Source of the DNA: Verrucomicrobiota bacterium
GTDB lineage: Bacteria; Verrucomicrobiota; Verrucomicrobiia; Limisphaerales; UBA11358
Direction: 5' to 3'
NCBI GenBank assembly: GCA_050010435.1
Contig: JBEKKZ010000005.1
Span: 45,544-109,543, forward strand
DNA length: 64,000 nucleotides
A program made the position numbers and the translations under genes. Under the pieces are notes generated by a model, which was not told where the DNA came from, ran no database searches, and saw only the letters and a program-made list of their open reading frames with translations. How positions within the stretch are numbered: the stretch's first letter is position 1; each line of letters opens with the position of its first letter. Positions 3,509-59,665 of this stretch are shown piece after piece.

Positions 3509-5257
3509 ATGAAATTCCGCTGGTCGCTCGCGCCGCCGCAACCGCTCCTTGCCGGTCAACTGGCGGCGCAGCTCAAAATCCCGCCCTTGCTCGCGCAATG
3601 CCTGCTCAATCGCGGTTTCAGCGAACCGTCCGCCATTGAAAATTTTCTCTCGCCGCGCCTCAAGAACCTTGCCGACCCTTTTTTGCTCCCGAACATGGCC
3701 GTCGCCGTCGAGCGATTGCTCCGCGCCCGCGAACAAAATGAATCACTGATCATCTTTGGCGATTATGACGTGGACGGCGTGACCTCCACCGCGCTCCTCG
3801 TCGAAGTTCTGCGTCCGCTTGGCTGGAAGGTGGATTTTTATCTGCCGAACCGCATGGACGAAGGCTACGGCCTCAGCGCCGACGGCGTCGAAAATTGCCT
3901 CAAAAAGTTTCCCGTAAAACTGCTGCTCGCCGTGGACTGCGGCTCGACAGCCGTGGAAACCATCAGCCTTCTGCGTTCGCGCGGCGTGGAGGTCATCGTC
4001 CTCGATCATCACCAGGTTTCTTCGCCCCCACCGGCCGCCGTGGCGTTGGTGAACCCGCAACTCCAAAGTAGCGCAGGCGTCCCGCCTGCACCGGACAGGC
4101 GTGACGCCTGTGCTACTTTCACCGAACTTTGCTCTGTTGGTCTGGCCTTCAAACTGGCTCATGCGCTGGTCAAACGCGGACGCGAAATTGGCTTGCCGGG
4201 CGCGGCGGAATTTGATTTGCGACCACTCCTCGATTTGGTCGCGCTCGGCACGATTGCCGACCTGGTGCCATTGACCGGTGAAAATCGGATTCTCACTTCC
4301 GCCGGTTTGCAACGCCTTAATATGACGCAGCGGCCCGGTTTGCTCGCGCTCAAGCAGGTCGCGCAGTGCCCGCCAATGCTCGGCGCTTACGAAGTGGGTT
4401 TTCAACTGGCCCCGCGCCTGAATGCCGCCGGCCGGCTCGAAACCGCGGAGGAATCGCTGCATTTGCTGCTCGCGCGCGATTTGGCCGGGGCCATGCCCAT
4501 CGCCCAAAGCCTCGACTCGCGAAACCGCGAACGCCAGAAGATTGAACGCGGCATCGTGGAGGAAGTCATCGGGGTCGTTAAATCAAAATTTGATCCGCAG
4601 ACTGATTTCGTCATCGTCGAAGGGCGATTGCTCTGGCACATCGGCGTGGTCGGCATCGTCGCGTCGCGCGTGCTGCAACAATTTTACCGCCCCACGATCA
4701 TTCTCGGCGGTGAAGGCGGTGAATGGCGCGGTTCGGGCCGCAGCATTGCGGGATTTGATCTGGCCGCCGCGTTGCGTGAGTGCGGCGATTTGCTCGTGCG
4801 GCACGGCGGTCACGCGATGGCGGCGGGACTGAGCCTTCAGCCGGACAAAGTGGACGCGCTCCGGCAGCGGTTGAATGAACTGGCGCGCCGCGCGTTGAAG
4901 CCGGAGGATTTGCAACCACCGGTGCGCCTCGATGCGGAAGTGGGTTTGGACGAAATGACTTTGGAATCGCTTGGCGAACTGGCGCGCTTGAAACCGGCCG
5001 GGCAGGGGAACCCGCCGGTGCAATTTTGCGCGCGCAGCGTCACGCACCAACGCCCGCTCCAGCGCATGGGCAAGGAGAAACAGCACGTCAAACTTTGGGT
5101 GACGGACGGCGCCGTGACGCACGAAGCCGTTTGGTGGAATGGCGGCGACGAGTCGTTGCCGGTCGGAAAATTTGATCTGGCGTTCGCGCCGCAGGTGAAT
5201 GAATTCAACGGCCGCCGCACGGTGCAATTAAAAGTGCTCGATTGGCGGGCGGCGTGA
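3509..5257 (+). CDS. recJ: Single-stranded-DNA-specific exonuclease RecJ
   Basis: 582 aa; DHH-family motifs IFGDYDVDGVTS, LLAVDCGS, VIVLDHHQ and DHHA1 motif GGHAMAAG. Carries a 17-codon family-A palindrome (SSAGVPPAPDRRDACAT). Confidence 0.9.
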   Translation: MKFRWSLAPPQPLLAGQLAAQLKIPPLLAQCLLNRGFSEPSAIENFLSPRLKNLADPFLLPNMAVAVERLLRAREQNESLIIFGDYDVDGVTSTALLVEVLRPLGWKVDFYLPNRMDEGYGLSADGVENCLKKFPVKLLLAVDCGSTAVETISLLRSRGVEVIVLDHHQVSSPPPAAVALVNPQLQSSAGVPPAPDRRDACATFTELCSVGLAFKLAHALVKRGREIGLPGAAEFDLRPLLDLVALGTIADLVPLTGENRILTSAGLQRLNMTQRPGLLALKQVAQCPPMLGAYEVGFQLAPRLNAAGRLETAEESLHLLLARDLAGAMPIAQSLDSRNRERQKIERGIVEEVIGVVKSKFDPQTDFVIVEGRLLWHIGVVGIVASRVLQQFYRPTIILGGEGGEWRGSGRSIAGFDLAAALRECGDLLVRHGGHAMAAGLSLQPDKVDALRQRLNELARRALKPEDLQPPVRLDAEVGLDEMTLESLGELARLKPAGQGNPPVQFCARSVTHQRPLQRMGKEKQHVKLWVTDGAVTHEAVWWNGGDESLPVGKFDLAFAPQVNEFNGRRTVQLKVLDWRAA

Positions 5258-9512: not shown

Positions 9513-12185
9513 ATGGCCGACCGTTTGCCCATTTACGAAATCGAGCGCGACATCATCGCCCGGCTGAAAACCAACCGGCGGCTGATTTTGTCCGCGCCGA
9601 CCGGTTCCGGCAAATCCACGCAGGTGCCGCAAATGCTGCTCCGGCACGGTCTGCTCGGCGACGGGCAGGTAGTGATTCTCCAGCCGCGCAGGCTGGCCAC
9701 GCGGTTGCTAGCGTCCCGCGTGGCGCAGGAACTCGGCGTCCAGCTTGGCAACGAAGTGGGTTATCAAATCCGTTTTGAAAATATCACGTCTCCGCAGACG
9801 AAAATCCGTTTTGTGACGGAAGGCGTCTTGTTGCGGCAGATGATTGACGATCCGAATTTGCACGGCGTTGCCGTCCTCATCTTTGACGAGTTTCACGAAC
9901 GCCATCTTTACGGTGACATCACGCTGGCGCGCGCACTCGACTTGCAGGAGCAGCACCGGCCGGACCTGAATCTCATCGTCATGTCTGCGACGCTCGACGC
10001 GGAGTTATTGGGGGATTACCTCAACCAGGTAGGGCGGGCTGTCCCCAGCCCGCCGCGGCGCGCAGGGGACTGCGCGCCCTACCAATGCTCTGTCTTGTCC
10101 TCCGAAGGCCGCGTATTTCCGGTTGAAATCGAATACGCCGCGCAGCCGGGTTACACGGACAAACGCCCGGTTTGGGAGCAGGCTGCCGAGGCCTTCAGTC
10201 ACTATGTTGGCTCCGGCGGGGAGGGTGACGTGCTGGTGTTCATGCCGGGCGGCTTTGAGATTTCGCAGACCATCGAGGCCATCCGTCATACTTCGGAGTC
10301 GAAAGGTTTTATTTTGCTTCCGTTGTACGGCGAACTTTCCCCCAAAGACCAGGATGCCGCGGTGGCGCGTTACGGCCAGCGCAAAGTTGTCGTTTCCACC
10401 AACGTCGCCGAGACCTCGCTGACCATTGACGGCATCCGGCTGGTGATTGACAGCGGGCTGGCGCGCATTCCGCGTTACGATCCGTATCGGGGCATCAACA
10501 CGCTGCTCATCGAGAAGATCAGTCAATCGTCAGCGGACCAAAGGGCGGGGCGGGCGGGCCGCACCGCGCCGGGCGTTTGCATGCGGCTTTGGTCGCGGGA
10601 GGAACATGGACATCGGCTGGTTCAGGAACTGCCCGAAATCAAACGGCTTGATCTGGCTGAAGTCGTGTTGACGCTCAAAGCCGCCGGGGTCGAGGATTTG
10701 CGGAAATTCCGCTGGCTCGAACCACCGAATGAACAAAGCCTGGTCCATGCAGAGGAATTACTGGAAGACTTGGGCGCAATAAAAAGTAGCGCGGCCGTCC
10801 CGGCTGCCGCAGTTAATGACAATTCCAGTATTCAGCGGAATGCTGAACCCGGCAGGCGGGACGCCTGCGCTACTTCTCAAATCACCCCCATCGGCCGCAA
10901 GATGCTCGCGTTTCCGTTGCACCCGCGTTACTCGTGCATGTTGCTCGCGGCGCAGGAATACGGTTGCGTCCACCAGGCCTGCCTTGTCGCCGCGCTCACG
11001 CAGGGGCGCGATTTGCTGCTGCGCAATGTGGATCGTGACACGCAGGCGCTGCGGGAGGATTTGCTGGGGGAGAAGGCGTCGTCGGATTTCTGGATTCTGA
11101 TGCGCGCGTGGACTTACGCGGCCAAAAACCAATTCCGCCTCGACGCCTGCCGCCGGCTCGGCATCCACGCCGTCACCGCACGGCAGGTCGGGCCATTGTT
11201 TGAACAGTTCCTTCGCATCGCCAAAGACGAAGGTCTCGATGTGAAACCGCGCGAGGTGAAGGACGAGGCCTTGCAGAAGTGTATTCTCATCGGATTTTCC
11301 GACCGCGTGGCGCGGCGGCTGGACCAGGGCACGCTGCGTTGCGAATTGGTCCATAATCGTCGCGGTGTGCTGGCGCGCGAAAGCGCCGTGCAACACAGCC
11401 AGCTTTTCGTGGCTGCCGAAGTCCGCGAAGTCGAGGGCCGGGAAGTGAACACCATTCTTTCCCTTGCCACCGCCATTGAAGCGGACTGGTTGCGCGAACT
11501 TTACCCCGAAGACATGGAATCCGACCTGCACGTCCAGTTCGATTCCACGGCCAAACGGGTGCAAGCCGCGGAGCTGTTGAAGTTTCGCGGCCTGGCGCTG
11601 TCAGCCAAGCGCGTTGAACCGCCGCCGGCCGACATGGCGGCACGATTGCTGGCCGATGAAATTATTGCCGGACGATTGCTGTTGCCGAATTGGGATCACA
11701 GTGTCGAGCAATGGCTGTTGCGGCTGCGCCTGCTTTGCCAGCATTGCCCCGAGCTCCAGCTTCCGCCCATCACCGAAGACGATCGCAAGCACATCATCGG
11801 GCAGCTTTGCCACGGTGCGGTGAGTTACAAGGACATCAAGGAACGCGAAGTGAAACCGGTTGTGGTGTCGTGGCTGTCCGAGGCGCAACGCGGGTTGCTG
11901 GACAAGCACGCGCCGGAGCGGTTGTCGCTGCCGAACGGCCGCACGCCGAAGGTTGCCTACGAGGCGACCGGCTCGCCGCATATTTCGTTGCGCATCCAGG
12001 AACTTTACGACGTGATCCAGACGCCGAAGATTGCGCTGGGGCGCGTGCCGGTGCTGGTTCACATTCTGACTCCGGGCATGAAGCCGATACAAATTACACA
12101 GGACCTTGCCAGTTTCTGGCGCGAGCACTATCCGCGTATCAAATCCGAGTTGCAGCGGAAATATCCGAAACATCTGTGGCGATGA
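9513..12185 (+). CDS. hrpB: ATP-dependent RNA helicase HrpB (DEAH box)
   Basis: 890 aa; motifs I APTGSGKST, II DEFHER, III SAT, VI QRAGRAGR. Length and C-terminal region fit HrpB rather than HrpA (inference). Carries two in-frame palindromes. Confidence 0.9.
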   Translation: MADRLPIYEIERDIIARLKTNRRLILSAPTGSGKSTQVPQMLLRHGLLGDGQVVILQPRRLATRLLASRVAQELGVQLGNEVGYQIRFENITSPQTKIRFVTEGVLLRQMIDDPNLHGVAVLIFDEFHERHLYGDITLARALDLQEQHRPDLNLIVMSATLDAELLGDYLNQVGRAVPSPPRRAGDCAPYQCSVLSSEGRVFPVEIEYAAQPGYTDKRPVWEQAAEAFSHYVGSGGEGDVLVFMPGGFEISQTIEAIRHTSESKGFILLPLYGELSPKDQDAAVARYGQRKVVVSTNVAETSLTIDGIRLVIDSGLARIPRYDPYRGINTLLIEKISQSSADQRAGRAGRTAPGVCMRLWSREEHGHRLVQELPEIKRLDLAEVVLTLKAAGVEDLRKFRWLEPPNEQSLVHAEELLEDLGAIKSSAAVPAAAVNDNSSIQRNAEPGRRDACATSQITPIGRKMLAFPLHPRYSCMLLAAQEYGCVHQACLVAALTQGRDLLLRNVDRDTQALREDLLGEKASSDFWILMRAWTYAAKNQFRLDACRRLGIHAVTARQVGPLFEQFLRIAKDEGLDVKPREVKDEALQKCILIGFSDRVARRLDQGTLRCELVHNRRGVLARESAVQHSQLFVAAEVREVEGREVNTILSLATAIEADWLRELYPEDMESDLHVQFDSTAKRVQAAELLKFRGLALSAKRVEPPPADMAARLLADEIIAGRLLLPNWDHSVEQWLLRLRLLCQHCPELQLPPITEDDRKHIIGQLCHGAVSYKDIKEREVKPVVVSWLSEAQRGLLDKHAPERLSLPNGRTPKVAYEATGSPHISLRIQELYDVIQTPKIALGRVPVLVHILTPGMKPIQITQDLASFWREHYPRIKSELQRKYPKHLWR
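10029..10082. repeat. REP-like palindrome, family B (GTAGGGCGGGC...GCGCCCTAC), translated inside hrpB
   Basis: 54 bp = 18 codons (VGRAVPSPPRRAGDCAPY), codon-aligned with hrpB. Related copies lie at 16864..16919 and 57474..57546. Confidence 0.85.
10785..10874. repeat. REP-like palindrome, family A, translated inside hrpB
   Basis: AGTAGCGCGGCCGTCCCGGCTGCC ... GGCAGGCGGGACGCCTGCGCTACT; 90 bp = 30 codons ([30 protein letters not shown]), codon-aligned. Confidence 0.9.
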
Positions 12186-34906: not shown

Positions 34907-36832
34907 TTATACCTTCCGTGCCTCTTTCGCCCAGGTGTCCTTCAATGTAATCGTTCGATTGAAAATGAGGCGTGAGGCGTTGGGCACGAGGCTTGAGTCT
35001 TTGTCCAAAGCAAAATAGGCGAGGCGCTCGAATTGGTAGCGCAGCTCCGGCTTCGCGTCTTTCAGGCTTGGCTCGCATTTTGCCGTCACCACTTCCAGGC
35101 TGTGCGGGTTGAGCGTGGATTTGAAGTCGCCAGCCGCATCCGGCTCCGCAGTGGTGAACAGGCGGTCGTATAATCGGACTTCAGCGTCAATCGCGTGCGC
35201 GGCGCTTACCCAATGGATTGTGCCTTTGACTTTCCTATTCGGGCCCGTAGCCGCAGACGTTAGTCCGCGCACTTCCATTTCTTTGCGCCGACTCACGCCG
35301 GCGGCTACAAATTTGGAATCGAGGTCGGCGGTGCAACGCAGTTCCACAATCTTGCCGGCGGCGTCCTTCACCACTTCGTCGCATTTGATGATGTAGGCGT
35401 ATTTCAACCGGACTTCGCCGCCGGGTTTTAACCGGAAATATTTCGGCGGTGGCACTTCCTTGAAATCGTCCTGCTCAATGAACAGTTCGCGGCTGAACGG
35501 AATTTTCCGTTTGCCCACGTTTTCGTCCTCGGGATTGTTGACGGCGTCCAGTTCCTCGGTTTTGCCTTCGGGATAGTTGGTGAGGACGACCTTGATGGGG
35601 CGCAACACGGCGAGCCGGCGCAGGGCACGCTTGTTCAGGTCTTCGCGGATGGCGTGTTCGAGCACGGCCACGTCGGTCAGGCCGTTGTATTTGGTGATGC
35701 CGATGTTGTAGGCGAACGCGCACAGCGCGGTCGCCGGAACGCCGCGTCGCCGGATGCCGCTGATGGTGGGCATGCGCGGGTCGTCCCAGCCGGTGACGAG
35801 TTTTTCGCTCACAAGCTGCATCAACTTGCGTTTGCTCATCACGGTGTAGGCGAGGCTGAGCCGGGCGAATTCGTATTGATGGGGCAAGGGACGCGGCAGG
35901 TCGAGGTTCTCCAGTATCCAATCGTAAAGCGGGCGATGCACCTCGAATTCCAGCGTGCAAATGCTGTGCGTGATGCCTTCGATATAATCGCTCAGGCAAT
36001 GCGCGAAATCATACATGGGATAAACACACCATTTGACGCCGGTGTGATGATGGTCGGCGTGGCGGATGCGGTAAATGAGGGGGTCGCGCATCCAGACGTT
36101 CGGCGCGGTGACGTCAATCTTTGCGCGGAGCGTGCGCGCGCCGTCGGGGAACTCGCCGTTCTTCATCCGGGTGAACAAGTCGAGGTTTTCCTCGACGCTG
36201 CGGTTGCGGAACGGGCTTTCCTTGGCGTTGCGGCGATATTCGTCGGTTTCGTCCGGTGTCAGGTCGCAGACATAAGCCTTGCTCTTCTTGATGAGCGCGA
36301 CGGCGTATTCGTAAAGCTGGTCGAAATAATCCGAAGCATAAAATGGCTCCAAGGTAGCGCAGCCGTCCCGGCTGCCTTCCTCGGATGCTTGCAGGCGGGA
36401 CGCCTGCGCTACATTTGCAGGCGGGACGCCTGCGCTACCAGAAACTGGTGCCAAATAAAAATCAGGTTTGCCATTGCTCGTAATCGTCTCCGGGGTTTTG
36501 CCTTTGGGTTTCAGGCCGAGCTTGTCATCGGCCCAGCCGGCGATCAGCCAGTTCACGTCCTCGATGATGGAGTCCACGTATTCGACGTCTTCCTTGGTCG
36601 GGTTGGTGTCGTCCATGCGCAGGTTGCAGACGCCGCCGAACTCGTGGGCGATGCCGAAGTTGAGGCAGATGCTTTTGGCGTGGCCGATGTGCAAATAGCC
36701 GTTCGGTTCGGGCGGAAAGCGGGTGTGAATGCGCGGATACTTTTTCTCGGCAACGTGTTTCTCGACGATGTCGCGGATAAAATCAGACGGACCGGCAGGC
36801 GATGGCGGATTACCTGTGTTCGGATTGCTCAT
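34907..36832 (-). CDS. glnS: Glutaminyl-tRNA synthetase
   Basis: 641 aa; HIGH region [19 protein letters not shown]-type TVMSKRKL, C-terminal [13 protein letters not shown]...RLYDRLF as in GlnRS. Two palindromes are translated in frame. Confidence 0.95.
35247..35308. repeat. REP-like palindrome, family C, translated inside glnS
   Basis: GTAGCCGCAGACGTTAGTCCGCGC ... GCGCCGACTCACGCCGGCGGCTAC; encodes (minus strand) [21 protein letters not shown]. Confidence 0.85.
36353..36439. repeat. REP-like palindrome, family A, 1.5 copies, translated inside glnS
   Basis: GGTAGCGCAGCCGTCCCGGCTGCC ... GCAGGCGGGACGCCTGCGCTAC attt GCAGGCGGGACGCCTGCGCTACC; 87 bp = 29 codons ([29 protein letters not shown]). 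Confidence 0.9.
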
Positions 36833-48015: not shown

Positions 48016-50955
48016 ATGCACAACTTATTCAACACACTCCGGAAATTTGACCTCGGCGGCGGCAGGCAGGGATCGTTCTATTCCCTGCCCGCGCTGGAAG
48101 AGGCCGGCGTCGGGCCGGTTTCCCAATTGCCCGTCTCCATCCGCCTCGTGCTCGAGTCCGTGCTCCGCAATTGCGACGGCAAAAAGGTCAGCGAACAAAA
48201 CGTGCGCGCGCTGGCGAATTGGAAGCCAACTGAAACCCGCACGGAGGAAATTCCGTTTATCGTCGCGCGCATCGTGCTGCAGGATTTCACCGGCGTGCCG
48301 CTGCTGGTGGATTTGGCGGCGATGCGCTCCGCCGTTCAACGGCTGGGCAAAAATCCGAAAATCATCGAGCCACTCGTGCCGGTGGATCTGGTCGTGGACC
48401 ATTCGGTGCAGGTGGATTTTGCGGGCAGCGTGGATGCGTTTCAGAAGAATCTGGACATGGAATTCCGGCGCAATCGCGAGCGTTATCAATTTCTCAAATG
48501 GGGCATGCAGGCCTTCGACACGTTCAAGGTCGTGCCGCCCGGCATCGGCATCGTCCATCAGGTCAACTTGGAATATCTCGCCAAGGGCGTGCTCAGTAGC
48601 GCAGGCGTCTCGCCTGCACAGAGCAATGGGAATGCAGCCGGGACGGCTGCGCTACTTTATTATCCGGACACGCTGGTTGGCACGGATTCGCACACGACAA
48701 TGATCAATAGCCTCGGCATCGTGGGTTGGGGTGTCGGCGGTATCGAGGCTGAAGCCGGCATGCTGGGCCAGCCGGTTTATTTCCTCACGCCGGACGTCGT
48801 CGGCGTGCATCTCACCGGCGCGTTGCGCGAGGGCGTCACCGCCACCGACCTCGCGCTCACCATCACGGAAATGCTCCGCAAGGCAAAGGTCGTCGGCAAG
48901 TTCGTCGAATTTTTCGGTCCCGGCGCGGCGGCGTTGCCGGTTGTGGACCGCGCGACGATGGCGAACATGGCGCCCGAATACGGCGCGACGATGGGTTTCT
49001 TCCCGATTGATGCCGAGTGCGTAAATTATCTCCGCGCCACGGGCCGCAGCGAAGAGCTTTGCCTGACCTACGAAAATTATTACCGCGCGCAGGGTTTGTT
49101 CGGCATTCCCAGGAAGGGCGACATCGCCTACTCGCAGGAACTGGAACTCAACCTTGGCATGGTGGTTCCCAGCGTGGCCGGCCCGAAGCGCCCGCAGGAT
49201 CGCATCGAACTGCCGAAGTTGAGAGACGCGTTCATGAAGGCGATGACGCGTTCGGTCATGGACAATGGCTTCGGCAAGCGCTTCGAGGAGCTGTATGTAA
49301 CCGCGCGGGTCAACACGGCGCGGGAGGCCCATCCGCCCATTAATCACAGCTATGGCCATCGCAAGCTGGGCGTGGATCCCAGCGAATCCGAGATGCGCGA
49401 CCAGCACCCCGCGCCCCACACCTCGGAGCATGTGCCTTCCACGACGTTTCGCGGGGTGCAGTCCGAAATTCGCCACGGCAGCGTGCTCATCGCGGCCATC
49501 ACCAGTTGTACGAACACGTCGAATCCCAGCGTCATGCTCGCCGCCGGTTTGCTGGCGAAGAAGGCCGTGGAATGCGGACTCAGCGTGAATCCCGTCGTCA
49601 AAACCTCGCTCGCCCCCGGCTCGCGTGTGGTGAGCGATTACCTGGACCGGACCGGCCTGCAATTCTACCTCGATCAGCTCGGCTTCAACCTCGTGGGTTA
49701 CGGCTGCACGACTTGCATCGGCAACTCCGGTCCCCTGCCGGCCACGGTCGAAGACGCGATCAACAAATACGACCTGGTCGTGGCCTCCGTCCTTTCGGGC
49801 AACCGCAACTTCGAGGCGCGCGTGCATCAGAGCATCAAGGCGAACTTCCTCATGTCGCCACCGCTCGTTGTCGCCTTTGCGCTCGCGGGCCGCGTGGACA
49901 TTGACCTGAGCCGCGAGCCGATCGGCACGGGCAAGAATGGCCGGCCGGTTTATCTTCGCGACCTCTGGCCAAGCCTGCGTGAAATCCGCGACCTCATGCA
50001 AACCGCGTTGCAGCCGGAAGTTTATCGCAGGCTGTTCAAGGATTTTGCGGCGCAGAATCCCAAGTGGAACGAAATCCCCTCGTTCACCGGCAATGTTTTC
50101 GTATGGGACCGCCGGTCCACTTACATACAGGAACCGCCGTTCTTCGAGAAGTTCCTGCTGCAAGCCGGGGAAATTCGTGAAATCAAGGGTGCGCGAGCGC
50201 TGGCCATTTTTGGCGACAGCGTGACGACCGACCACATTTCACCCGCTGGATCCATCAAGAAGACATCGCCGGCTGGAAAATATCTCATCGAAAACGGTGT
50301 CGAACCGGCGGACTTCAACAGCTACGGCTCGCGGCGGGGCAACGACCGGGTGATGACGCGCGGCACGTTCGCCAATGTCCGCATCAAAAACCTCATGGTG
50401 CCTGGAGTTGAAGGTGGGGTGACCAGATTTTTTGGTAGCCGCGTTCGTGAGAATGCGGATGCCACAGGTGAAAAGCCCGGCGCTTTCACAAGCGCCGCTA
50501 CGGGGGAGGTGATGCCGATTTACGACGCCGCCATGAAATATCGGACTGCCGGCGTTCCGCTGGTGGTGATTGCCGGACAGGAGTACGGCACCGGTTCATC
50601 CCGTGACTGGGCTGCGAAAGGCACGAACCTGCTCGGCGTGAAGGCCGTCGTGGCGCAGAGCTTCGAGCGCATCCACCGCAGCAACCTTGTCGGCCTGGGC
50701 GTGCTGCCGCTGCAATTCAAGGAAGGCACGACGGCACAGACGCTCAACCTCGATGGCACGGAGACCTACGACATCGTCGGCCTTGGCGCGAATTTGAAAC
50801 CGCAGCAGGATTTGACGCTGAAAATCACGCGCCAGGACGGCGGCGTGGAAGATGTGCCCGTGCGTTGCCGGATTGATACGCCGATTGAAATTGATTACTA
50901 CCAGCATGGCGGCATTTTGCCCTACGTGCTGCGGCAGTTGGTGGCGAAGGCGTGA
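48016..50955 (+). CDS. acnA: Aconitate hydratase A
   Basis: 979 aa; [33 protein letters not shown] Fe-S ligand regions, C-terminal swivel domain ([19 protein letters not shown]). Two palindromes are translated in frame. Confidence 0.95.
48595..48656. repeat. REP-like palindrome, family A, translated inside acnA
   Basis: AGTAGCGCAGGCGTCTCGCCTGCA ... TGCAGCCGGGACGGCTGCGCTACT; codon-aligned, reads [21 protein letters not shown]. Confidence 0.9.
50435..50501. repeat. REP-like palindrome, family D-like, translated inside acnA
   Basis: GTAGCCGCGTTCGTGAGAATGCGG ... CCGGCGCTTTCACAAGCGCCGCTAC; reads [23 protein letters not shown] between the conserved GVTRF and [13 protein letters not shown]. Confidence 0.8.
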
Positions 50956-57874: not shown

Positions 57875-59665
57875 ATGAAGTGGTCCCAAGCATTTATTCC
57901 GACCCTGCGCGAAGCTCCGGCTGACGCGGAAATCCTTTCCCATAAACTCCTGCTGCGCGCCGGGCTTATCCGCAAGCTCGCGGGCGGGGTTTACACCTTT
58001 CTGCCGCTCGGTTTGCGCGCGCTGCGCAAGGTGGAGCAAATCGTCCGCGAGGAAATGGACCGTGCGGGCGCGCTCGAACTGCTCATGCCCGCCCTTCAGC
58101 CGTCGGAAATCTGGCAGCAAAGCGGCCGGTACGAAACCGCGGGCAACGTGTTGTATAAATTGAAGGACAGCGGAAACCGCGAATGGGTTCTCAGCCCGAC
58201 GGCCGAGGAGGTCATTACCACCACCGCCGCCAGCGAGATTAATTCCTACCGGCAGTTGCCAAAGAATTTTTACCAGATCAGCGTCAAGTTCCGGGACGAA
58301 ATCCGTCCGCGCTTCGGCCTGATGCGCGCCCGTGAGTTCATCATGAAGGACGCCTACAGTTTTGACGTGAGCGACGAGGCGGCGCAGGTGTGCTATCAGA
58401 AAATGTACGACGCCTATGCGCGCATCTTCGCCCGGTGCGGACTGAAGGCGTTTCCGGTCGAGGCCGACACCGGCGTCATCGGCGGGAAATTTTCGCATGA
58501 ATTCATGGTTCCGGCGGAAACCGGCGAGAATGAGGTGGTTTACTGTGAGGCCTGCGGTTACGCGGCGAACATCGAGAAGGCCACCAGCGGCATTCCCAAA
58601 ACCGCCGCGCGTGAAGTCGGCGCGGCGATTGAAAAGTTTGCCACGCCCGGCGTTGTCACCATCGAAGCGCTGAGCAAGGCGCCTTACGGCGTTCCGGCCA
58701 ATCGTCAGATCAAAACGCTCGTTTACATCGCAGATAGCAAACCAGTCATCATTTTGATCCGCGGCGACGACCAGTTGAACGAAGCCAAGCTCGCGGGTAT
58801 CATCGGCACCGCGGTGTTCCGTCCAGCCACACCGGAAGAATGCGTGGCCACGCTCGGCGCGCATCCGGGAAGTCTCGGTGCGATTGCGAGCGCGCTGAAA
58901 AGTAGCGCAGGCGTCCCGCCTGCAAACTCCGAGGGCAGGCCAGAGGCCCGCGCTACTTTGCAAATATTCGCCGACGAGCGTTTGCGCGGCGCGAATGACA
59001 TGACCACCGGTGCGAATGAGGACGGTTTCCATTTCCGCAATGTCTCCATCGAACGCGACATCAAGGGGACGCAATGGTTCGATTTAAGAACTGTGACTGC
59101 CGGTGAACCCTGCGCGAAATGCAGCAAACCGCTGAAAATCCGCCGCGCCATCGAGGTCGGCCACGTTTTCAAGCTCGGCACGAAATACAGCGAGAAGCTG
59201 GGCGCAACATTTCTGGACGAGGCCGGCACGCGCAAGCCCGCCGTCATGGGTTGCTATGGCATTGGCGTTACACGAACCCTGCAAGCGGTCATCGAGCAGT
59301 GCAACGACAAGGACGGCATCATCTGGCCGTTAAGTATCGCGCCGTATCAGGTTTGCATCACACCGTTGGGCGTGGCGCCGGACAGCGCGGTGATGAAACT
59401 GGCGGAGAAAATTTACGCGGAACTGACCGCACGCGGCGTGGAAGTGATTCTGGATGACCGCGATGAACGTCCCGGCGTAAAATTCAAGGACGCGGACCTG
59501 GTGGGCTTTCCGATTCGCGTGGGCATCGGCGAGAAATCGCTGGCGAAGGGCGAAGTAGAACTCAAGCCGCGCGGTGGCGCGCTGCAACCCGTCAAGGCCG
59601 ACGAAGCGGTGGATGCCGTGATAAAATTGGTGGAAGCAAGCAATGGCGGTCTGCGAACGGCATGA
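57875..59665 (+). CDS. proS: Prolyl-tRNA synthetase (bacterial type with INS editing domain)
   Basis: 596 aa; class II motif 2 FRDEIRPRFGLMRAREFIMKDAYSF, motif 3 GCYGIGVTR, C-terminal anticodon-binding domain. One palindrome is translated in frame. Confidence 0.95.
   Translation: MKWSQAFIPTLREAPADAEILSHKLLLRAGLIRKLAGGVYTFLPLGLRALRKVEQIVREEMDRAGALELLMPALQPSEIWQQSGRYETAGNVLYKLKDSGNREWVLSPTAEEVITTTAASEINSYRQLPKNFYQISVKFRDEIRPRFGLMRAREFIMKDAYSFDVSDEAAQVCYQKMYDAYARIFARCGLKAFPVEADTGVIGGKFSHEFMVPAETGENEVVYCEACGYAANIEKATSGIPKTAAREVGAAIEKFATPGVVTIEALSKAPYGVPANRQIKTLVYIADSKPVIILIRGDDQLNEAKLAGIIGTAVFRPATPEECVATLGAHPGSLGAIASALKSSAGVPPANSEGRPEARATLQIFADERLRGANDMTTGANEDGFHFRNVSIERDIKGTQWFDLRTVTAGEPCAKCSKPLKIRRAIEVGHVFKLGTKYSEKLGATFLDEAGTRKPAVMGCYGIGVTRTLQAVIEQCNDKDGIIWPLSIAPYQVCITPLGVAPDSAVMKLAEKIYAELTARGVEVILDDRDERPGVKFKDADLVGFPIRVGIGEKSLAKGEVELKPRGGALQPVKADEAVDAVIKLVEASNGGLRTA
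58901..58957. repeat. REP-like palindrome, family A, translated inside proS
   Basis: AGTAGCGCAGGCGTCCCGCCTGCA ... GGCCCGCGCTACT; 57 bp = 19 codons ([19 protein letters not shown]), codon-aligned. Confidence 0.9.

What the first reader, a model, noticed from the sequence alone, without database searches (positions are those of the whole stretch)
36353..36439. glnS insertion 2: family-A palindrome with a duplicated right arm
One left arm (GGTAGCGCAGCCGTCCCGGCTGCC) is followed by two identical right arms (GCAGGCGGGACGCCTGCGCTAC, 36400-36421 and 36417-36438 region, separated by attt). The total of 87 bp = 29 codons is translated as [29 protein letters not shown], within a larger expansion of the loop that is [20 protein letters not shown] in E. 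coli GlnRS (from memory). The arm duplication shows that the element keeps evolving, by slippage or a second insertion, while staying in frame in an essential gene.
Basis: partly seen in the sequence, partly recalled or inferred. Interest (0 to 1): 0.65.

Follow-up and report, generated by a model that had tools for sequence, protein, structure and literature searches.

The report
Translated three-unit REP cluster in glnS
The 87-base palindrome inside the glutaminyl-tRNA synthetase gene is a real cluster of three copies of this bacterium's commonest small hairpin repeat (a REP element), read through as a floppy 29-residue loop; this is a known habit of such repeats in Verrucomicrobia, though the loop is refilled unusually often.

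Summary
Window 36353-36439 holds one REP unit (36354-36375) facing two identical units (36391-36412 and 36417-36438). The unit is GTAG, one base, then a 7-bp-stem hairpin.

About 196 such units lie at 116 loci in this 3.8-Mb peat/soil Verrucomicrobiota MAG. Most form inverted doublets (REPINs). An intact RAYT (REP-associated HUH/Tyr transposase) gene is flanked by them.

The third arm is not an assembly artefact. A contig from a different metagenome project, with a 95% identical GlnRS, carries the same triplet with a few substitutions. A third lineage has only the doublet, 33 nt (11 codons) shorter.

Simple slippage is unlikely. One 26-nt period would break the frame, and each direct arm has its own canonical leader. 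A second REP insertion fits better.

AlphaFold2 gives low confidence (pLDDT 47-63) for the REP-coded residues, against about 95 for their flanks.

About 42 of the 116 loci sit in frame inside genes. All 20 tested are real housekeeping genes.

Intragenic GTAG REPs, most abundant in the verrucomicrobium Opitutus terrae, were described by Di Nocera et al. 2013, so this is a new member of a known kind.

The added point is fast turnover. Related species carry four REP families or 7-nt tandem arrays in this same loop.

The parts
34907..36832 (-). glnS (GlnRS, 641 aa), the host gene
   Evidence: ORF found. Pfam tRNA-synt_1c, tRNA-synt_1c_C and tRNA-synt_1c_C2 match. E-value 3e-197 to PDB 5bnz GlnRS. 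Single copy in the genome.
36353..36439 (-). The whole REP cluster: 87 nt, 29 codons, GlnRS residues 132-160 ([29 protein letters not shown])
   Evidence: AlphaFold2 pLDDT is 47-63 here against about 95 in the flanks.
36417..36438 (-). REP1: GTAGCGCAGGCGTCCCGCCTGC, leader CTG, read as (G)SAGVPPA. It is the first unit in the direction of the gene.
   Evidence: Exact copy of the 38-copy master sequence. CTG is the second commonest leader. It corresponds to the left arm of the doublet allele in L136/L140.
36413..36416 (-). 4-nt linker AAAT (ATTT on the + strand). AAT is the canonical AA-N leader of REP2.
36391..36412 (-). REP2: GTAGCGCAGGCGTCCCGCCTGC, read in another frame as VAQASRL(Q). This is the unit that the doublet allele lacks.
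   Evidence: The same N-VAQASRL frame is used in alaS, mutS and other genes.
36376..36390 (-). 15-nt REPIN spacer (AAGCATCCGAGGAAG on the coding strand)
36354..36375 (+). REP3: GTAGCGCAGCCGTCCCGGCTGC, the compensated 'GCCG' stem variant with leader AAG. It is inverted relative to REP1 and REP2 and is read as (G)SRDGCAT.
   Evidence: This variant has 17 exact copies. GGCG arm plus inverted GCCG arm is a common doublet form.
36443..36526 (-). Lineage-specific but folded part of the loop expansion (residues 103-130, [28 protein letters not shown]). It is a small beta unit that carries the REP slot at its C-terminal end.
   Evidence: Present in most genomes of the order and absent in 3 of them. 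pLDDT 94-97 with three strands.
35247..35308 (-). Second in-frame REPIN in the same gene ('insertion 1'). It belongs to another family, GTAGCCGCCGGCGTGAGTCGGCGC...GCGCGGACTAACGTCTGCGGCTAC, and covers residues about 509-529.
   Evidence: Sequence shown. Absent from all 19 relatives in A1 but present in L150. The family has about 42 copies in the genome. pLDDT is about 62.

Best explanation
The 87-bp segment is a cluster of three units of the genome's dominant GTAG-tagged REP family. It consists of a REPIN (two inverted arms) plus one further arm in direct orientation. The cluster sits in a permissive, disordered tip of a lineage-specific surface loop of GlnRS, at the junction between the first half of the Rossmann fold and the acceptor-binding domain. 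There it is translated as 29 extra residues.

It is most likely a tolerated selfish passenger with no function for the enzyme. The family is inferred (not shown) to be copied by a RAYT (REP-associated Y1/HUH transposase). One intact RAYT gene lies elsewhere in the genome, bracketed by two family-A REPINs.

The three-arm form is real and older than this strain. It most likely arose when a second REP unit, with its own AAT leader, entered the spacer of an older doublet, for a net gain of 33 nt. Only in-frame outcomes would have survived. The two direct arms have since changed in concert.
For: REP identity:
- The unit is AA-N-GTAGCGCAGGCGTC(C/T)CGCCTGC, with compensated stem variants.
- There are about 196 units at 116 loci, 69 of them convergent doublets.
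- The family is amplified only in this genome: 110 copies against 0-11 in each of 30 relatives.
- A RAYT with an HVH (HUH) motif and a YIRENP tyrosine motif is flanked in frame by two family-A REPINs.

Reality and age of the triplet:
- The sequence is identical in a second assembly, JGI Ga0427918.
- The same triplet, including the AAAT linker, occurs in L150 (Ga0116110), whose GlnRS is 95% identical. It differs at four sites: REP1 GTAG->GCAG, an A->C change at the same position in both direct arms, and CTACC->CTACG.
- A doublet allele exactly 33 nt shorter occurs in five contigs of a lineage with about 87% identical GlnRS.

Against slippage:
- The repeat period is 26 nt and the two copies are separated by the filler AT.
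- Each direct arm has a canonical leader.

Tolerated loop:
- The AlphaFold2 model has mean pLDDT 91. REP-coded residues score 47-63 and flanks about 95.

Genome-wide habit:
- About 42 of 116 loci lie in long coding ORFs.
- All 20 tested are housekeeping genes by Pfam, including pheS, pheT, alaS, leuS, valS, proS, dnaE, mutS, uvrC and clpB.

Precedent:
- Di Nocera et al. 2013 (PMC3733652) described intragenic GTAG REPs as singles, dimers and groups. The highest number was in the verrucomicrobium Opitutus terrae.
Against:
- Translation of the insert is inferred from the open frame and the continuity of domains across it. There is no proteomic evidence.
- RAYT-driven mobility of REPs has not been shown for this family, and only indirectly for any family.
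- The order of events (doublet to triplet, or the reverse by a 33-nt deletion) cannot be polarised, because the spacers share no sequence.
- A function is not excluded. The RNA would fold very stably (-64.9 kcal/mol, z = -6.2).
Confidence: 0.85

Rival explanations
1. The third arm was made in place by replication slippage, that is, a tandem duplication of one arm of an existing REPIN.
For: There are two perfectly identical 24-nt direct copies only 2 nt apart. In L150 the two direct arms share the same A->C change, which shows that they exchange information locally.
Against: A 26-nt period is not a multiple of 3. Either the precursor or the product of a one-step duplication would therefore be frameshifted in a single-copy glnS. 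The copies are not exactly tandem, since AT follows the first and GC the second. Each arm is preceded by a different canonical leader, CTG or AAT. The doublet allele differs by 33 nt and has an unrelated spacer.
Confidence: 0.1
2. The duplicated arm is an assembly artefact of a short-read metagenome-assembled genome (MAG).
For: The genome is a 35-contig MAG. Repeats are a classic source of assembly error, and no reads could be checked.
Against: The same structure was assembled in JGI contig Ga0427918_0000146, whose contig length differs. More tellingly, it was also assembled in Ga0116110_1003435 from another project, with lineage-specific substitutions inside and around the arms. The structure also keeps the reading frame.
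Confidence: 0.02
3. The insert is kept because it is useful. It might act as a structured RNA or DNA element within glnS (affecting mRNA stability, translation pausing, or gyrase or IHF binding), or as a functional peptide loop of GlnRS.
For: The predicted hairpin is very stable (RNA -64.9 kcal/mol, z = -6.2; DNA -38.5, z = -6.9). The triplet has persisted across about 5% protein divergence. The slot is occupied in many species.
Against: The content of the slot is unrelated between close relatives: four REP families, several heptamer arrays, or nothing. Three genomes lack the whole loop. The coded peptide is predicted to be disordered. The same family sits in about 40 unrelated genes.
Confidence: 0.05

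Closest known systems
Intragenic GTAG REPs (Di Nocera, De Gregorio and Rocco 2013, BMC Genomics 14:522, PMC3733652), especially Opitutus terrae families GTAG-17 to GTAG-20
   Same: Both have a GTAG tag plus a 6-9-bp-stem hairpin and occur as singles, dimers and 'grouped' units. They are found inside known genes, notably replication/repair genes and tRNA synthetases, where they encode about 20-30 residues. Verrucomicrobia have the most. The coded peptides are similar (O. terrae GTGVPPV against SAGVPPA here).
   Different: This is a different species and order (an uncultured subdivision-3-type MAG). glnS is not in their list. About a third of the loci here are intragenic. This report adds allele series (triplet, doublet, other families) for a single site.
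REPIN-RAYT systems of Pseudomonas and Enterobacteria (Nunvar 2010; Bertels and Rainey 2011, from my own knowledge; population model in PMC8049555)
   Same: Inverted REP doublets act as the unit. One family dominates per genome. A single-copy RAYT gene is flanked by its REPs. Stem changes are compensated.
   Different: Classical REPINs are extragenic. Here many are translated, and the RAYT itself lies in frame inside a helicase gene. Several REP families coexist in the genome.
Rickettsia palindromic elements (RPE; Ogata et al. 2000, from my own knowledge; linked to CGTC REPs in PMC3733652)
   Same: Palindromic repeats are inserted in frame in housekeeping genes and translated as extra surface peptides without destroying function.
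   Different: RPE-1 elements are longer (about 100-150 bp). They carry no GTAG tag and have no known RAYT partner, and their host is an obligate intracellular alphaproteobacterium.
BIMEs of E. coli (clusters of REPs; from my own knowledge)
   Same: More than two REP units lie side by side.
   Different: BIMEs are extragenic, with arms of alternating orientation and defined linker motifs. Here two arms are direct and one inverted, all inside a gene.

Membership tests
GTAG-type REP | Terminal GTAG tetranucleotide followed by a short G+C-rich stem-loop | tested here: met
   The unit is GTAG-C-GCAGGCG-TCC-CGCCTGC. GTAG is 81-98% conserved per position over 196 units, and stem variants are compensated.
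GTAG-type REP | Many dispersed copies in one genome | tested here: met
   143 copies at <=3 mismatches and 196 at <=5 mismatches with an intact hairpin, at 116 loci on 30 of the 35 contigs.
GTAG-type REP | Extragenic location (the 'E' of REP) | tested here: not met
   About 42 of 116 loci lie inside long coding ORFs, and 20 of 20 tested are real genes. Intragenic GTAG REPs are an accepted subset (PMC3733652).
REPIN | Two REPs in inverted orientation with GTAG outward, able to form one long hairpin | tested here: met
   69 of 116 loci are '+-' doublets. In this cluster REP2/REP3 are 88% complementary and REP1/REP3 91%, and both pairings appear in the predicted folds.
REPIN-RAYT system | A RAYT (Y1 HUH transposase, Pfam PF01797) gene flanked by REPs of the same family | tested here: met
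   G000:C1:263598-263825 scores 26.7 bits against a cut-off of 23. The protein has an HVH motif and a YIRENP tyrosine motif. Family-A REPINs lie at C1 263175-263268 and 263901-263985.
REPIN-RAYT system | The RAYT cleaves and mobilises the REP or REPIN | not testable with these tools
   Needs biochemistry or evolution experiments. Only the species-specific amplification (110 against 0-11 copies) argues for recent copying.
Rickettsia palindromic element (RPE) | Palindromic repeat inserted in frame in protein genes and translated | tested here: inconclusive
   The in-frame, open and domain-continuous arrangement is shown. Translation itself is not shown. The sequence family is unrelated, so this is an analogue, not a member.
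Slipped-strand tandem duplication | Exactly tandem copies, with a frame-neutral period if inside an essential gene | tested here: not met
   The period is 26 nt, a 2-nt non-repeated filler separates the copies, and the two copies have different leaders.

The most novel reading that the evidence does not exclude
The glnS loop, and similar loops in pheT and other genes, may be a standing 'hairpin slot' whose occupant is exchanged in place. On this reading, REPINs of different families and 7-nt tandem arrays replace one another at a fixed junction. The junction is ...CTAC-N followed by the Leu codon before EPFY, and it is shared by three REP families in five lineages.

This would imply a process targeted to existing hairpins, such as RAYT cut-and-replace or gene conversion from other genomic copies. 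It would differ from random insertion followed by selection. The concerted A->C change in both direct arms in L150 would be a trace of the same process.
Probability: 0.25. Interest if true: 0.7.

Novelty: new member of a known kind. Interest (0 to 1): 0.38.

Why it matters
The case shows that a small selfish hairpin repeat can live, multiply and be remodelled inside a core translation enzyme without breaking it. It also provides a rare allele series for one site: a triplet, a doublet, other REP families, and 7-nt arrays.

About a third of this family's loci lie in housekeeping genes, including seven aminoacyl-tRNA synthetase genes. REPs in this lineage therefore add steadily to protein loop length variation.

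For annotation, such inserts should not be mistaken for errors or pseudogenes. For REPIN biology, the repeated refilling of the same loop gives a way to test whether insertion is targeted or merely filtered by selection.

Tried and rejected
I used independent assemblies instead.
- An exact 30-mer of the left flank found nothing in metagenome contigs, where own-genome records are left out. A degenerate codon pattern then found 18 loci.
- The first AlphaFold2 job, on 20 close sequences, gave mean pLDDT 41 and was discarded. The second, on 79 diverse sequences, was usable.
- My first REP regular expression was wrong, and a generic GTAG-hairpin census also failed (last lines). Both are ignored.
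- I had counted the absence of the TAG-containing frame among intragenic arms as evidence for translation. I dropped this because I had selected stop-free ORFs, so the argument is circular.
- I tested AA-N as a target-site motif like the TTAC of IS608. It occurs on both arms in 29 of 67 doublets, so it is more likely part of the element.
- Assembly artefact and simple slippage were considered and rated low (see rival explanations).

Full report
**1. The observation**

The window's minus strand carries a 641-aa ORF at 34907-36832. It is a GlnRS by three tests. It matches Pfam tRNA-synt_1c and both anticodon-binding domains. Its E-value to solved GlnRS structures is 3e-197. It is the only copy in the genome.

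At 36353-36439 the + strand reads GGTAGCGCAGCCGTCCCGGCTGCC, then 14 nt, then GCAGGCGGGACGCCTGCGCTAC, ATTT and GCAGGCGGGACGCCTGCGCTAC-C.
- They form a 24-nt perfect direct repeat with a 26-nt period.
- Each is 88-91% complementary to the left arm.
- The 22-mer has 10 matches in the window against none in 100 shuffles.
- The coding strand translates as [29 protein letters not shown], residues 132-160.

Compared with E. coli GlnRS, residues 103-161 are extra.

**2. What the unit is**

Each arm is GTAG, one base, a 7-bp stem, a 3-nt loop and the return stem. This is the signature of a GTAG-type REP.

In the whole genome (3.82 Mb, 35 contigs, 57% G+C) I found 143 copies at <=3 mismatches. The commonest sequences are:
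- 38 exact master copies;
- 27 copies with loop TCT;
- 17 copies of the fully compensated stem variant GCAGCCG/CGGCTGC that forms the left arm here.

Allowing 5 mismatches but requiring an intact hairpin gives 196 units at 116 loci, of which 69 are convergent doublets, that is, REPINs. The consensus extends to a leader, AA-N-GTAG. CTG is the second commonest leader.

The genome has eight Pfam Y1_Tnp matches. One of them, C1:263598-263825, is bracketed by two complete family-A REPINs. It encodes an HVH (HUH) motif and a YIRENP tyrosine motif. It lies in frame inside a DinG/XPD-like helicase ORF. This is the expected RAYT partner.

The family is a species-specific expansion: 110 copies (<=2 mismatches) here against 0-11 in each of 30 relatives. 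Record titles of related loci place the organism in Verrucomicrobiota, among peat, soil and groundwater MAGs of the subdivision 3 / Limisphaerales type.

**3. Is the third arm real?**

Two other lines of evidence settle the question.
- A JGI metagenome contig (Ga0427918_0000146, 188 kb, against 206 kb for the MAG contig) encodes the identical protein and is 100% identical over 2.9 kb. It may derive from the same reads.
- A degenerate search for the codons of [11 protein letters not shown] in public metagenomes returned 18 loci. One of them, L150 (Ga0116110_1003435, another project), encodes a GlnRS 95% identical to ours.

L150 has the same three arms, the same AAAT linker and the same 15-nt spacer. 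It also has its own substitutions:
- GTAG->GCAG in REP1;
- A->C at the same position of both direct arms;
- CTACC->CTACG at the right junction.

An artefact would not recur with lineage-specific changes. The triplet therefore predates the split of these two lineages.

**4. How the third arm arose**

Five further contigs (L136, L138, L140, L144, L151; GlnRS about 87% identical excluding gaps) carry a family-A doublet at the same place. It reads GSAGVSPA-HG-SSRDGCAT. Its left arm is in the frame of REP1 and its right arm in the frame of REP3. The triplet allele is exactly 33 nt (11 codons) longer. The extra material is the AAAT linker (which includes REP2's AAT leader), REP2 and a different spacer.

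Simple slippage is unlikely for three reasons.
- One 26-nt period is not a multiple of three, so the precursor or the product would be frameshifted.
- The two copies are followed by different dinucleotides (AT and GC).
- REP1 and REP2 each carry a canonical but different leader, CTG and AAT.

The better reading is entry of a second REP, or of a REPIN later trimmed by recombination between arms, into the spacer of an older doublet, with selection passing only in-frame products. The opposite direction, a 33-nt deletion, cannot be excluded. The shared A->C change in both direct arms of L150 indicates gene conversion or re-copying between the arms.

**5. Effect on the protein**

An AlphaFold2 model built from a 79-sequence alignment is confident overall, with mean pLDDT 91.1 and pTM 0.89.
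- Residues 103-130, the lineage-specific [28 protein letters not shown], fold as a small three-stranded unit with pLDDT 94-97.
- The REP-coded residues 131-160 drop to 47-63.
- The chain then returns to 97 at EPFYASDY.

The second REPIN of the gene ('insertion 1', 35247-35308, another family with about 42 copies) also has pLDDT of about 62. The inserts are thus predicted to be floppy excursions from a well-folded enzyme.

As single strands the cluster folds strongly (RNA -64.9 kcal/mol, z = -6.2; DNA -38.5, z = -6.9). There are two alternative pairings, REP1:REP3 or REP2:REP3.

gatB is present, so the claim that glnS is essential is an inference.

**6. The genome-wide habit**

A codon-usage score on both flanks puts about 42 of the 116 family-A loci inside long ORFs. 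All 20 that I tested with Pfam are bona fide housekeeping genes:
- tRNA synthetases: pheS, pheT (two inserts), alaS (two), leuS, valS, proS;
- replication and repair: dnaE (two), mutS (two), uvrC, recJ, an addA-like gene, the DinG-like helicase;
- others: clpB, glmS, purL, a miaB-like gene, a copA-like gene, metH (two), hrpB, aconitase.

All five family-A loci of this window are intragenic. The glnS cluster is the only intragenic triplet.

**7. Comparison with what is known**

Di Nocera et al. 2013 (PMC3733652) defined GTAG- and CGTC-tagged REPs across prokaryotes. Their report covers the essentials of this case.
- REPs occur inside genes in several species.
[quoted passage not shown] - DNA repair genes and tRNA synthetases are frequent hosts.
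- Rickettsia RPE-4 and RPE-6 are the CGTC counterpart.

glnS is not in their table. The present case is therefore a new member of a known kind.

**8. What goes beyond the known picture**

The slot turns over fast. In the same loop, just before the Leu-Glu-Pro-Phe-Tyr codons, related genomes carry very different content.

| Lineage | Content of the loop |
|---|---|
| G017, L143, L148 | REPIN of family GTGGCACAG..., with 25 copies in G017 |
| SPRUCE_686 | REPIN of family GTAGGACAGGCT... |
| L145 | REPIN of family GTAGGGCGGGCAG..., with the same CTG\|GTAG and CTAC\|CTTGGAGCC junctions as here |
| Other relatives | Tandem 7-nt arrays (AACATCC, AATCCGC, ATCACGC, GGCATCC, CCCTCAA, AAAGCAG) |
| G025 | A 24-nt tandem repeat |
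| Remaining relatives | Plain sequence |

All these REP families also exist in G000 at lower copy number.

On a GlnRS tree, (G000, L150) is sister to (G017, G011), yet G017 has another REP family and G011 a heptamer array. L143, which has the G017-type family, is sister to SPRUCE_686, which has yet another. The backbone of the tree is poorly resolved.

In pheT, both family-A insert sites of G000 are occupied in G017, G011 and G014 by a different REP family or by heptamer arrays.

Two models remain open. The slot may be refilled by independent insertions that selection tolerates only there. Alternatively, the occupant may be exchanged in place by a hairpin-targeted process. I rate in-place exchange at about 0.25.

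**9. Verdict**

The element is a REP/REPIN cluster with a RAYT partner. It is not an artefact, probably did not arise by slippage, and is translated as a disordered loop. This is a known kind of event. Interest is moderate because of the allele series and the slot turnover.

Noticed in passing
L011:1893-1930; L032, L015, L058, L045; L141, L142, L147, L149, L152: In many related species the same glnS loop holds tandem 7-nt arrays of unrelated units (AACATCC x5, CCCTCAA x4, ATCACGC x3-4, GGCATCC x4, AATCCGC x4 or more, AAAGCAG x4). All are in frame. In L141 and L152 the arrays flank small palindromes. A +/-1-unit slip would frameshift this single-copy gene.
   Followed up: partly
L154, L155, L156 (pheT orthologues of G017, G011, G014): Both sites where G000 pheT carries a family-A REPIN are occupied in relatives by something else. 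Site 1 has heptamer arrays (GTGTTCA/CTGAAAA, AACTCAA, GAATTCA). Site 2 has a GTAGCCGC-type REP or REPIN with a shared left junction ATTTCCC|GT(A/G)GC. G010 and G003 have an empty site 2.
   Followed up: partly
window 35247-35308 (-): glnS carries a second in-frame REPIN of another family (GTAGCCGCCGGCGTGAGTCGGCGC..., about 42 copies in the genome). It encodes residues about 509-529. It is absent from 19 relatives but present in L150, so both inserts predate the G000/L150 split.
   Followed up: partly
window 4068-4116, 10786-10873, 48596-48655, 58902-58956: The other four family-A REPIN loci of the window all lie in frame inside genes: recJ, hrpB, aconitase and proS respectively.
   Followed up: yes
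G000:C1:261681-264647 (L135), outside the window: The RAYT flanked by family-A REPINs is embedded in frame in a 989-aa ORF. Its Pfam domains are DEAD plus Helicase_C_2 (DinG/XPD type). A second long ORF with a Y1_Tnp match (C3:118175-118444, 1000 aa) may be that one.
   Followed up: partly
window 34907-35250 (GlnRS residues about 560-641): The C-terminal 80 residues of G000 GlnRS ([10 protein letters not shown]..., [12 protein letters not shown]..., ...RKV) differ from L150, G017 and G011 (EKDGRDFKSV..., ...PSKLVL..., ...QKG), although the rest is 95% identical to L150. G003, G009 and G002 have the longer SSL...LIF form. This suggests recombination or another variable slot. L143 has a further REPIN-like insert there (VGSRCRAASDDQQVVPT).
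   Followed up: no
genome-wide: Among intragenic inverted arms, the three open reading frames are used 18, 20 and 2 times. The frame giving ...QAGRLRY is almost never used although it has no stop codon. This may reflect selection on the peptide or preferred spacer lengths.
   Followed up: no
L156, L160 (pheT of G014, G015) and L163 (alaS of G010): the genome search reports one in-frame TGA inside these otherwise intact essential-gene matches. The positions were not examined. Possible causes are a repeat-borne stop, a sequencing error or recoding.
   Followed up: no
L025:1501-3321 (G025 glnS): The same loop in G025 contains a threefold tandem repeat encoding DDGRVVVA (a 24-nt unit), another kind of expansion at this site.
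   Followed up: no
G000:C1:697936-698775: gatB is present (E = 1e-113). GatCAB therefore coexists with GlnRS. Whether it serves only Asn-tRNA formation was not examined.
   Followed up: no
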